From a bacterium (GTDB lineage: Bacteria > UBA8248): 64,000 nt of DNA. Positions 7,034 to 7,161 of this stretch are shown piece after piece; position 1 is the stretch's first letter, and each line of letters begins with the position of its first letter. The notes under the pieces are model-generated. The model did not search any database, had not been told where the DNA came from, and worked only from the letters and a program-made list of their open reading frames with translations. Made by a program: the position numbers and the translations under genes. The stretch lies in contig OZ242260.1 in the NCBI GenBank assembly GCA_965207065.1, positions 3,194,514-3,258,513 of the forward strand, given 5' to 3'.

Positions 7034-7161
7034 CTGTGGGTCTGTGGGTCTGTGGGTCTGTGGGTCTGTGGGTCTGTGGGTCTGTGGGTCTGTGGGTCTG
7101 TGGGTCTGTGGGTCTGTGGGTCTGTGGGTCTGTGGGTCTGTGGGTCTGTGGGTCTGTGGGT
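7034..7161. repeat. Perfect tandem repeat (CTGTGGGT)x16 in the 5' region of the cargo-Slam operon
   Basis: Directly visible: 16 uninterrupted 8-bp units, about 250-375 bp upstream of the ATG at 6787. Confidence 0.95.

What the first reader, a model, noticed from the sequence alone, without database searches (positions are those of the whole stretch)
7034..7161. Perfect 16-copy octanucleotide repeat (CTGTGGGT) in the upstream region of the cargo-Slam operon is a candidate phase-variation or expression-tuning switch
There are 128 bp of uninterrupted 8-bp units, about 250 bp upstream of the cargo start codon on the coding side. An 8-bp unit changes spacing by a non-helical-turn increment with every gain or loss of a unit. 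Such promoter-proximal simple-sequence repeats control surface-protein expression in Neisseria, Haemophilus and Moraxella by slipped-strand mispairing. Here the repeat lies between an AT-rich island (7320-7390) and the gene. So it could alter promoter-to-activator distance or UTR length.
Basis: partly seen in the sequence, partly recalled or inferred. Interest (0 to 1): 0.72.

Follow-up and report, generated by a model that had tools for sequence, protein, structure and literature searches.

The report
Hypermutable repeat upstream of Slam cargo
A perfect 16-unit 8-bp repeat sits in the leader of a surface-protein export operon on a mobile element in a sponge-type Nitrospinota genome; sister elements carry 8 or 2 units, and related genes in several other bacterial groups carry similar repeats, so it is probably a stochastic expression switch.

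Summary
(CTGTGGGT)x16 at 7034-7161 is perfect and is the only long simple-sequence repeat (SSR) in the 64 kb. It lies 246 nt upstream of a minus-strand gene (5066-6787). That gene's predicted fold matches Slam substrates (NHBA, fHbp, hemophilin, TbpB, HpuA), and a Slam gene follows it (3391-4860).

The operon lies at the edge of a GC-rich conjugative element in a Nitrospinota chromosome. Two sister elements with 93-98% identical flanks carry 8 and 2 units, so the unit number varies. Homologous cargo-Slam and giant-adhesin genes in MAGs of several groups carry pure SSRs of other units (4, 7 or 8 nt, never 3n) at the same relative position.

In eight Nitrospirales paralogs the repeat lies in a leader ORF and shows all three frame states. 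In the window, one frame enters the array. With 16 units it stops 16 nt after the array. With 17 or 14 units it would run to a TGA overlapping the cargo ATG.

That frame has no ATG or GTG here, and shuffling shows such open frames are common. A promoter-like block conserved at DNA level sits directly before the array. The mechanism is therefore unresolved: uORF frame switch about 0.42, length-dependent leader effect about 0.27, neutral about 0.18. It is a new member of a known kind.

The parts
7034..7161 (-). Simple-sequence repeat, 16 perfect units. It reads ACCCACAG on the gene (minus) strand and CTGTGGGT on the plus strand.
   Evidence: TRF; probe and shuffles. Sister alleles have 8 units (L062 9681-9744) and 2 units (L164 3817-3832).
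7170..7198 (-). Promoter-like block directly before the array: -35-like TTGGCG (7198-7193), a 17-nt spacer, and an extended -10-like TGCTAGACT (7178-7170). It also supplies stop codons TAG 7175-7173 and TGA 7170-7168 in the two frames that do not enter the array.
   Evidence: Sequence. Alignment A3 shows the blocks CTTTG[CG] and GTCC(G)TGCTAGAaT conserved with L001, L020 and L025 while the spacer varies and the frame is not kept. A regex finds this block only at 8 SSR loci in all the DNA held. It matches only 8 of 12 consensus positions, so the scan does not report it.
7320..7401 (.). AT-rich island with sigma-70-like hexamer pairs on both strands. It is the probable divergent promoter region for the cargo operon (leftwards) and the VRR-NUC-like gene (rightwards).
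   Evidence: minus strand TTGATG-16-TATATT at 7384-7357; plus strand 7350-7377. The homologous island in L164 scores 10/12 (TTGAAT-16-TATAAT).
7288..7350 (-). 20-codon ORF from ATG 7350-7348, which lies 7 nt after the -10-like TATATT, to TGA 7290-7288. The stop overlaps TTG 7291-7289 (TTGA). In L164 and L062 the island ATG is shifted by 2 nt and is in the frame that enters the repeat.
   Evidence: (alignment).
7016..7291 (-). The only reading frame that can enter the array from upstream. It is open from 7366 and has in-frame TTG codons at 7291 and 7198 but no ATG or GTG. With 16 units it ends at TGA 7018-7016, 16 nt after the array.
6784..7033 (-). Leader between the array and the cargo gene (246 nt up to the ATG). 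One frame is open for 82 codons and ends at TGA 6786-6784, overlapping the cargo ATG (ATGA). The other two frames stop at 7018-7016 and 7007-7005. The Shine-Dalgarno sequence AAGGGAGGAAG is at 6803-6793.
   Evidence: In shuffles the ATGA frame is open by chance with P = 0.11, and any frame with P = 0.32-0.41. The fold has z = -1.8.
5066..6787 (-). Cargo gene, 573 aa. It has a signal peptide without a lipobox, two Ig-like repeat domains, and a C-terminal handle plus 8-strand barrel of the Slam-substrate type. Its C-terminal half (5074-6055) is hypervariable between sister elements.
3391..4860 (-). Slam (surface lipoprotein assembly modulator), 489 aa from the ATG at 4860. The mechanical ORF extends to 4935.
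   Evidence: Pfam PF04575 SlipAM 7.6e-13 plus TPR. Homologs all carry SlipAM. A 489-aa cluster member lies on the same 4.48-Mb contig.

Best explanation
The array is a hypermutable simple-sequence repeat (a contingency-type locus) in the transcribed leader of a cargo-Slam operon. The operon is carried by a conjugative element in a sponge-type Nitrospinota chromosome. Slipped-strand gain or loss of 8-bp units changes how much cargo, and probably Slam, is made.

The read-out I consider most likely is translational. Only one reading frame can enter the array from upstream, and each unit shifts it by -1. With n = 1 mod 3 (16 units, this window) or n = 0 mod 3, ribosomes in that frame stop 16 or 27 nt after the array, leaving about 230 nt of naked leader. 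With n = 2 mod 3 (17, 14, 8 or 2 units) the frame stays open for 82 codons and ends in a TGA overlapping the cargo ATG (ATGA). Ribosomes are then delivered to the cargo start, giving translational coupling, opening of the partly paired Shine-Dalgarno region, and/or shielding from premature termination. On this reading the window copy is in the uncoupled (low) state, one unit away from the coupled state.

Shown: the anatomy, the unit-number polymorphism, the frame consequences, and the frame-switch architecture in relatives. Inferred: that the leader frame is translated here, that the coupled state is ON, and that switching occurs within populations.
For: (1) Unit number differs among near-identical elements: 16 in the window, 8 in L062 and 2 in L164-166 (13 contigs). 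Flanks are 93-98% identical. A second orthologous pair has (CCGAGAG)x37 against x53.

(2) Every perfect SSR of 24 bp or more with a non-3n unit, in about 1 Mb of fetched homologous loci, lies in sense orientation upstream of a cargo homolog or a giant adhesin ORF. The units are ACCCACAG, CGAC/GACC, GAGAGCC, AGCGCCAG, GCCT and CCAG, that is 4, 7 or 8 nt and never 3n. The only 3n arrays are inside the cargo gene region.

(3) Eight paralogs in one Nitrospirales genome have AGGAGG-N5-ATG, about 8 codons, then (GCCT)n. They show all three outcomes: in-frame fusion (L002, L003, L005, L007), immediate stop (L004, L008, L010) and a stop overlapping the main ATG (L009). L020 and L025 have a Shine-Dalgarno-ATG leader whose stop overlaps a GTG of the main ORF (GTGA).

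(4) In L164 an ATG 20 nt downstream of the predicted AT-island start site opens an ORF that runs through the repeat and the 261-nt leader and ends in ATGA on the cargo ATG. The unrelated L064 leader does the same with (AGCGCCAG)n. L062 and L163 read in frame into the cargo gene.

(5) Stops flank the arrays non-randomly. The nearest stop before the array is a median 3 nt away (P < 0.001 against random positions). Two frames close soon after the array (P about 0.04-0.05).

(6) The switched product is a surface or secreted Slam-substrate-fold protein whose C-terminal half is hypervariable.
Against: The entering frame in the window has no ATG or GTG, only TTG 7291 and 7198 without a good Shine-Dalgarno sequence. 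The ATG of L001/L020-type leaders is ATC in all three alleles of this element. The cargo has its own strong Shine-Dalgarno sequence.

The leader shows no GC3 coding signature (0.60/0.62/0.61 and 0.63/0.51/0.52, against GC3 of 0.84 for the cargo and 0.92 for Slam). It also carries 4- and 5-nt indels between alleles. Shuffling shows that one open frame across such GC-rich leaders is common (P 0.3-0.95), so the long frame and the ATGA are not significant on their own.

The blocks just before the array are conserved at DNA level, with no synonymous changes and without keeping the frame. They look like a -35/extended -10 promoter, which would start transcripts at the array and exclude an upstream uORF start. 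The 2-unit allele is widespread, so an expanded array is not needed for the operon. No read-level or expression data were available.
Confidence: 0.42

Rival explanations
1. Length-dependent leader effect, working like the H. influenzae hmw repeats. The array is transcribed as the first about 130 nt of the mRNA (from the promoter-like block at 7198-7170) or as an internal part of a 560-nt 5' UTR (from the AT island). Expression then changes gradually with unit number, independent of reading frame. One possible route: the unstructured C-rich, G-poor RNA (ACCCACAG)n acts as a loading site for Rho or for RNases, and its efficiency grows with length.
For: Promoter-like -35/extended -10 blocks are conserved at DNA level, with a variable spacer, directly before the array in the window, L062, L164, L001, L020 and L025. 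L011 and L064 have TTGACA-N20-TATAAT ending 2 nt before their arrays. The cargo has its own strong Shine-Dalgarno sequence. The array RNA is predicted to be essentially unpaired (P(paired) about 0.1-0.2) and is 50% C and 12.5% G. There is a precedent: the hmw 7-bp repeat is transcribed in the 5' UTR, and expression falls as repeat length rises (PMC12721329).
Against: Folding with 0-32 units shows no change in predicted Shine-Dalgarno or AUG accessibility and no hairpin partner for the array, so the hmw RNase III hairpin mechanism is not reproduced. Homologous loci use units of very different composition, and GAGAGCC is G-rich, so a sequence-specific RNA effect such as a rut site cannot be general. 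This model does not explain the absence of 3n units or the stops placed just after the arrays. The window's block matches only 8 of 12 consensus positions.
Confidence: 0.27
2. A neutral by-product. The array is a hypermutable but functionally inert microsatellite that expanded from a chance 2-unit duplication in a heavily transcribed leader. Unit number drifts without affecting expression.
For: The 2-unit allele is the most widely sampled (13 contigs), and the operon is otherwise intact there. No leader start codon is present in the window, and there is no coding signature. Predicted RNA structure is insensitive to unit number. Transcription-dependent repeat instability is documented for hmw (PMC12721329).
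Against: Independent expansions of at least six different units occur at the same relative position, specifically upstream of this family of surface-protein genes, in MAGs labelled as several different bacterial groups. No such arrays occur elsewhere in about 1 Mb of flanking DNA or in the other 64 kb of the window. Arrays are pure and long, up to 370 bp. In the Nitrospirales paralogs the repeat is unambiguously between a Shine-Dalgarno-ATG and the signal peptide.
Confidence: 0.18
3. A recombination or structure element. The plus-strand sequence (GGGTCTGT)n fits the G-quadruplex motif (G3-N5 repeated). As with the pilE G4 of Neisseria, it could stimulate recombination that diversifies the adjacent cargo gene rather than control its expression.
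For: The sequence has sixteen G3 tracts with 5-nt loops on the template strand of the cargo gene. The cargo C-terminal half is 72-88% identical between elements that are otherwise 93-100% identical, a mosaic pattern compatible with recombination.
Against: Homologous loci carry units that cannot form G4 structures (CGAC, GAGAGCC, GCCT, AGCGCCAG, CCAG) at the same position. No silent donor cassettes were seen in the window. The 2-unit allele has an equally divergent cargo gene.
Confidence: 0.04
4. A coding repeat inside a real protein gene (ORF 6935-7252 on the plus strand or 7016-7291 on the minus strand), or an assembly artefact.
For: Both mechanical ORFs span the array, because the unit has no stop codon in any frame.
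Against: Alleles differ by 64 and 112 bp, neither a multiple of 3, which would destroy any such gene. There is no GC3 signature. The array is reproduced in independent assemblies.
Confidence: 0.02

Closest known systems
Contingency loci of Neisseria and Haemophilus with the repeat in the 5' coding region (opa CTCTT; lic and lgt tetranucleotides). Recalled from established knowledge, not tested against those sequences.
   Same: A pure tandem repeat with a non-3n unit is associated with a surface-protein gene. Unit number sets the reading frame, and out-of-frame states stop just after the repeat. Multi-copy gene families have members in different states, as seen in the Nitrospirales paralogs.
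   Different: In the window the array is 246 nt upstream of the cargo ATG, not inside the cargo ORF. The frame that traverses it lacks ATG or GTG. The in-phase outcome is a stop overlapping the cargo start (ATGA) rather than an in-frame protein. The unit is 8 bp, and the host is an uncultured Nitrospinota bacterium rather than a human pathogen.
H. influenzae hmw1A/hmw2A 7-bp (ATCTTTC)n repeat in the 5' UTR (PMC12721329; PMC8262952)
   Same: The repeat lies between the promoter region and the start codon of an adhesin operon. It is probably transcribed as part of the leader, and its unit number varies between strains.
   Different: The hmw repeats pair with a G-rich segment to form a long hairpin that RNase III cleaves. 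Here the array RNA is predicted to be unpaired and no partner exists. An inverse relation between length and expression was not testable.
Phase-variable Slam-dependent cargo hpuA (poly-G in the ORF) in Neisseria. Recalled from established knowledge.
   Different: That case is a homopolymer inside the coding sequence. This is an octamer in the leader. The cargo here has no lipobox and carries two extra Ig-like domains.
Slam-hemophilin (HphA) type secretion pairs
   Different: There is no evidence of haem binding. The pair sits on a conjugative element, and the N-terminal Ig-like repeat domain is shared with giant adhesins of MAGs whose record titles indicate sponge symbionts.

Membership tests
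SSR contingency (phase-variable) locus | A pure tandem repeat of short units in the promoter, leader or 5' coding region of the controlled gene | tested here: met
   16 perfect 8-bp units, 246 nt upstream of the cargo ATG and downstream of the promoter-like sites.
SSR contingency (phase-variable) locus | Unit number differs between closely related strains or elements | tested here: met
   16, 8 and 2 units in elements whose flanks are 93-98% identical.
SSR contingency (phase-variable) locus | High-frequency, reversible length heterogeneity within one population | not testable with these tools
   Only consensus assemblies are available. The source contig could not be retrieved at read level, and look-ups for proteins of the 4.48-Mb contig failed.
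SSR contingency (phase-variable) locus | Unit number changes expression of the gene | not testable with these tools
   Only sequence consequences were derived: frame outcomes and RNA folding that is insensitive to n.
SSR contingency (phase-variable) locus | The controlled product is surface-exposed or interacts with the host | tested here: met
Translational frame switch (opa or lic type) | The repeat lies within an ORF downstream of a functional start codon | tested here: inconclusive
   The window's entering frame has only TTG 7291 and 7198. Sister alleles L164 and L062 have an in-frame ATG in the AT island. Relatives L002-L010, L020, L025, L017, L023 and L064 have a Shine-Dalgarno-ATG.
Translational frame switch (opa or lic type) | Unit length is not a multiple of 3, and out-of-phase frames terminate soon after the repeat | tested here: met
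   The unit is 8 bp. Stops lie 16 and 27 nt after the array, and the third frame runs to the cargo ATG.
hmw-type 5'-UTR repeat | The repeat RNA forms a long hairpin with a complementary G-rich arm that is the RNase III target | tested here: not met
   ViennaRNA gives P(paired) of the array of about 0.1-0.2 from either candidate start site, with no partner arm.
hmw-type 5'-UTR repeat | The repeat is transcribed as part of the 5' UTR | not testable with these tools
   This is inferred from promoter-like sites upstream. There are no transcript data.
Slam and Slam-dependent cargo pair (type XI secretion) | A Slam protein with N-terminal TPR and a C-terminal DUF560/SlipAM barrel | tested here: met
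   PF04575 at 7.6e-13, plus TPR_19, TPR_16 and TPR_Slam.
Slam and Slam-dependent cargo pair (type XI secretion) | An adjacent cargo gene whose product has the C-terminal handle plus 8-strand barrel | tested here: met
Slam and Slam-dependent cargo pair (type XI secretion) | The cargo is a lipoprotein (lipobox cysteine) | tested here: not met
   The N-terminus MKNRKNYAFLSPPGVCAAAFLVLALSVAALPGVAA has no lipobox at the end of the hydrophobic core. This is compatible with hemophilin-like secreted cargo.
G-quadruplex recombination initiator (pilE G4 type) | A G4 motif plus donor cassettes for gene conversion | tested here: inconclusive
   The motif G3N5 x16 is present on the plus strand. No donor copies are in the window. 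Homologous loci use units that cannot form G4.

The most novel reading that the evidence does not exclude
The array is one instance of a portable 'leader plus microsatellite' cassette that places secreted and surface proteins under stochastic, frame-dependent switching. The proteins are Slam cargo on conjugative elements and giant fn3/Calx-beta adhesins. The hosts are MAGs labelled Nitrospinota, Nitrospirales, Rhodospirillales, Paracoccaceae and Vicinamibacterales, several with sponge-associated record titles. Repeat units are replaced freely while the position and the uORF-to-start-codon coupling are kept. Contingency loci, so far a hallmark of animal pathogens, would then be a general strategy of uncultured symbionts of this type and would spread by horizontal transfer.
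Probability: 0.35. Interest if true: 0.8.

Novelty: new member of a known kind. Interest (0 to 1): 0.6.

Why it matters
Simple-sequence contingency loci are textbook for Neisseria, Haemophilus, Campylobacter and Helicobacter. Two full-text searches returned no paper describing them in sponge symbionts or linking them to Slam systems outside pathogens.

Suppose the repeat switches a hypervariable, Slam-exported surface protein carried on a conjugative element, and relatives in other bacterial groups do the same with other repeat units. That would point to strong, fluctuating selection on the cell surface of uncultured symbionts, for example from host phagocytosis or recognition, or from phages. 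It would also provide a simple marker for finding the proteins at that interface: pure non-3n repeats in leaders.

The idea is directly testable on public HiFi reads by counting units per read.

Tried and rejected
(1) Exact-protein look-ups for the window's cargo (two start choices), P0001, its paralog P0006 and the paralog Slam P0143 all failed. The second copy on the same chromosome could therefore not be examined.

(2) Megablast of 3000-9500 against plasmids gave no match.

(3) The single metagenome scan, with (ACCCACAG)x3, gave 97 stretches. None shares the window's flanks and none encodes the cargo family. One example is a eukaryote-like telomeric context in L103. The scan was uninformative for this locus. 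A viral-contig scan with the junction sequence gave 0 hits.

(4) Rfam on 6500-8000 gave nothing meaningful (ALIL, 14 bits against a 50-bit threshold).

(5) Folding of the leader shows a weak z of -1.8, an unpaired array and no effect of n. The hmw-like hairpin was rejected.

(6) I first took the 82-codon open frame ending in ATGA as strong evidence. Shuffles give P = 0.11 for that frame and 0.3-0.95 for any frame across the leaders, so it was downgraded.

(7) I first read the L001/L020 leader conservation as peptide-level. Codon comparison shows only DNA-level blocks.

(8) The continuous ORF into the cargo gene in L062 is not conserved in L164.

(9) A sequence profile of the cargo against PDB gave no hit. 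Only the fold comparison worked.

(10) ARAGORN found no tRNA genes in the window, so there is no tRNA to mark an integration site.

Full report
OBSERVATION. The window holds (CTGTGGGT)x16 at 7034-7161, with 100% matches, no indels and TRF score 256. No other array in the 64 kb exceeds 7.2 copies. A two-unit probe gives 15 hits, all inside the array, against 0.01 expected from shuffles. On the minus strand the array reads (ACCCACAG)16. It ends 246 nt upstream of an ATG at 6787-6785, which is preceded by a strong Shine-Dalgarno sequence, AAGGGAGGAAG at 6803-6793. An AT-rich island at about 7320-7400 lies a further 160 nt upstream. It contains the only sigma-70-like hexamer pairs that the scan finds in 6500-8200, one on each strand.

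GENOMIC CONTEXT. Next to the pair lie an HTH_17 gene, TraE and TraK. The sister locus L062 continues with TraL, TraE, TraK, TraB, TraV and TraC. GC content is 65-74% over 1-7 kb and about 57% in the rest of the window. The rest encodes TsaD, DusB, DnaB, SecD, TopA and a pyrophosphatase. Sources label exact or near-identical copies of these housekeeping proteins as Nitrospinota MAG proteins, and they sit on a 4,476,866-bp contig. The operon is therefore at the edge of a conjugative element integrated in a Nitrospinota chromosome. The sponge habitat is inferred from the record titles of related loci and from my own knowledge of those MAG sets.

DOES THE UNIT NUMBER VARY? It does. L062 is a 1.47-Mb long-read contig with the same synteny and a cargo 78% identical. 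It has the same octamer at the same place but with 8 units. The alignment shows flanks that are nearly identical, a clean 64-bp gap, and two small indels in the leader. L164, L165 and L166 are three places standing for 13 short-read contigs, and their Slam falls in the same 90% cluster. They carry 2 units. A 16-bp array is far shorter than the assembler's k of 141, so I take it as a genuine allele, not a collapse. Upstream identity among the three alleles is 93-94% and leader identity is 95-98%. A second orthologous pair, L063 and L162, has (CCGAGAG)x36.9 against x52.9. Heterogeneity within a population could not be tested.

THE FAMILY-WIDE PATTERN. The cargo family scan returned 51 loci in MAGs whose titles name many bacterial groups. 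Further loci came from exact-protein look-ups. Pure SSRs sit upstream of the homologous gene, in sense orientation, as follows.
- L001: (CGAC) about x25
- L011: (GAGAGCC)x28
- L163: (GAGAGCC)x23
- L063 and L162: (CCGAGAG)x37 and x53
- L064: (AGCGCCAG)x17 plus x9
- Eight Nitrospirales paralogs, L002-L005 and L007-L010: (GCCT)x4.5-24.5
- L017, L020, L023 and L025: (GAGAGCC)x30, (GACC)x46, (CCAG)x25 and (CGAC)x32, each upstream of a 2,200-4,000-codon open reading frame. Pfam, run on two of them (L020, L017), finds fn3, Calx-beta and SWM-repeat adhesin-like domains.
In about 1 Mb of these loci, every perfect array of 24 bp or more with a non-3n unit is in such a position. The only 3n arrays lie inside the cargo gene region. 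L011 and L064 share the same leader but have different units, so units turn over while the position is kept. The P0007 group (10 assemblies) has only (GCCT)3. No paper describing this was returned by two full-text searches.

HOW RELATIVES WORK. In the Nitrospirales paralogs a strong Shine-Dalgarno sequence (AGGAGG) and an ATG precede the repeat by about 8 codons. After the repeat, one frame hits TAA or TAG at once, one ends in a TGA overlapping the ATG of the signal-peptide ORF, and one is in frame with it. Within one genome, four copies are fused, three are stopped and one is ATGA-coupled. This is the classic picture of a multigene translational phase-variation family. In L020 and L025 a Shine-Dalgarno-ATG leader reads through the repeat and stops at a TGA overlapping a GTG of the giant ORF.

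THE WINDOW'S ARRAY IN THAT LIGHT. Stop codons TAG 7175-7173 and TGA 7170-7168 close two frames just before the array, so only one frame, open from 7366, can enter it. After the array, two frames stop at 7018-7016 and 7007-7005. The third stays open for 82 codons and ends at TGA 6786-6784, overlapping the cargo ATG. With 16 units the entering frame meets the early TGA. With 17 or 14 units it would join the long frame. In L164 (2 units) an ATG about 20 nt downstream of the predicted AT-island start site opens an ORF that runs through the repeat and the leader and ends exactly in the ATGA. In L062 (8 units, plus 10 nt of indels) the same ATG reads in frame into the cargo gene. In unrelated leaders, L064 reproduces the ATGA arrangement and L163 the in-frame one. 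Across ten locus classes, stops lie unusually close before the arrays (median 3 nt, P < 0.001) and close two frames soon after them (P about 0.04-0.05).

WHY I DO NOT REGARD THE FRAME MODEL AS SETTLED.
(a) The window's entering frame has no ATG or GTG. The island ATG is displaced by 2 nt (7350-7348) and gives a 20-codon ORF ending in a TGA that overlaps TTG 7291. The ATG of the L001/L020-type leader is ATC in all three alleles.
(b) The leader has no GC3 signature (about 0.5-0.6, against 0.84 for the cargo and 0.92 for Slam), and it carries 4- and 5-nt indels between alleles.
(c) Dinucleotide shuffles leave the ATGA frame open in 11% of trials and at least one frame open in 30-95% of trials, depending on the leader. 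The long frame alone therefore proves nothing.
(d) The about 45 nt before the array are conserved with L001, L020 and L025 as two DNA blocks, CTTTG[CG] and GTCC(G)TGCTAGAaT. A variable 12-nt spacer separates them, the conserved codons show no synonymous changes, and a 1-nt indel breaks the frame. This is the footprint of a -35/extended -10 promoter. It would start transcripts at the first repeat unit, downstream of any uORF start.
(e) The cargo has its own strong Shine-Dalgarno sequence.

ALTERNATIVES TESTED. The hmw mechanism pairs the repeat arm with a G-rich arm to form a hairpin cut by RNase III (PMC12721329). It is not reproduced here. With 0-32 units, from either candidate start site, the array is predicted to be unpaired and Shine-Dalgarno/AUG accessibility does not change. 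The unpaired C-rich, G-poor RNA would suit Rho loading, but the G-rich GAGAGCC units of relatives argue against that as a general explanation. The plus strand fits a G4 motif, but relatives' units cannot form G4. Rfam finds nothing. A protein-coding repeat is excluded by allele differences of 64 and 112 bp.

VERDICT. The array is real, it is polymorphic between sister elements, and it belongs to a recurrent association between pure non-3n repeats and genes for secreted or surface proteins in this family. It is very probably (about 0.7) a contingency-type tuner of the cargo-Slam operon. My estimates for the read-out are:
- a uORF frame switch with coupling to the cargo start, with the window copy in the uncoupled phase: about 0.42
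- a frame-independent, length-dependent leader effect: about 0.27
- no effect: about 0.18

It is a new member of a known kind, in an unusual host and on a mobile element. Its wider interest lies in the family-wide pattern.

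Noticed in passing
window 5074-6055 (C-terminal half of the cargo gene): Among the three sister elements, nucleotide identity is 93-100% across the leader, the N-terminal half of the cargo gene, Slam and HTH_17. It drops to 72-88% in the part encoding the handle/barrel domain. This hypervariable segment suggests diversifying selection or cassette exchange.
   Followed up: partly
L002-L010 (Nitrospirales MAG OZ241905.1), about 9650-9800 in each locus: Eight paralogs carry (GCCT)x4.5-24.5 between a strong Shine-Dalgarno-ATG and the signal-peptide ORF. 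Four are in frame, three stop at once, and one stops on the main ATG. This resembles an opa-like phase-variable multigene family in an uncultured Nitrospirales bacterium.
   Followed up: yes
L020 5118-5393, L025 5274-5489, L017 414-842, L023 6126-6458: Open reading frames of roughly 2,200-4,000 codons are preceded by Shine-Dalgarno-ATG leaders that run through (GACC)46, (CGAC)32, (GAGAGCC)30 and (CCAG)25. Two of them (L020, L017) were scanned and have fn3, Calx-beta and SWM-repeat domains. In L020 and L025 the leader stop overlaps a GTG of the main ORF.
   Followed up: partly
L011 9300-9553 versus L064 3480-3741: The same leader (ATG ... TTGACA-N20-TATAAT-ta) is followed by (GAGAGCC)28 in one genome and by (AGCGCCAG)17+9 in another. 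The repeat unit has been replaced within a conserved context.
   Followed up: partly
L163 2724-2900, L017 710-900, L011 9554-9700, L064 3790-3900, L063 3606-3760: The GAGAGCC-type cassettes share conserved segments downstream of the repeat (about CACCGCATTCCTGCCGCGCGGCTGACGCC, and a CCCGCC...GGCGGG hairpin followed by CTTCCCTCACC). They do so even when the downstream gene differs (Slam cargo versus giant adhesin). This may be a conserved leader RNA element. No covariation analysis was run.
   Followed up: no
window 1-8600 versus 12000-64000: A GC-rich (65-74%) F-type conjugative element edge carries TraK 111-1247, TraE 854-1564, HTH_17 2667-3380, Slam, the cargo gene and a VRR-NUC-like gene at 7792-8174. 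It abuts chromosomal housekeeping genes at about 57% GC. ARAGORN found no tRNA genes in the window, and the element boundary was not mapped.
   Followed up: partly
window 9382-10320 (+): A second putative surface lipoprotein has the lipobox-like LSGCGGGG and a weak TbpB_B_D match at its C-terminus (4.3e-5, below the Pfam cut-off). It is conserved in related Nitrospinota genomes (a 14-member cluster) and has no SSR upstream.
   Followed up: partly
window 4947, 7479, 7498, 12079, 12116, 12302, 16001(-), 29273: A dispersed 17-nt motif, GGCCYCYGYGCCTGTCC, occurs in 8 copies against 0.4 expected. It is found in intergenic spots of both the mobile element and the chromosome, resembling a REP-like element. 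Two copies sit just upstream of the AT island, and one sits between the cargo gene and Slam.
   Followed up: no
L002 11880-12000 and the equivalent positions in L003, L005, L007, L009 and L025: Imperfect 11-bp and 20-21-bp repeats (ATAGCAAAAAC) lie directly downstream of the Nitrospirales paralogs. Their function is unknown.
   Followed up: no
the same 4.48-Mb contig, outside the window: The chromosome holds a second cargo gene (P0006, 70% identical) and a second Slam (P0143, 94% identical). This second copy of the system could not be retrieved to compare its repeat.
   Followed up: partly
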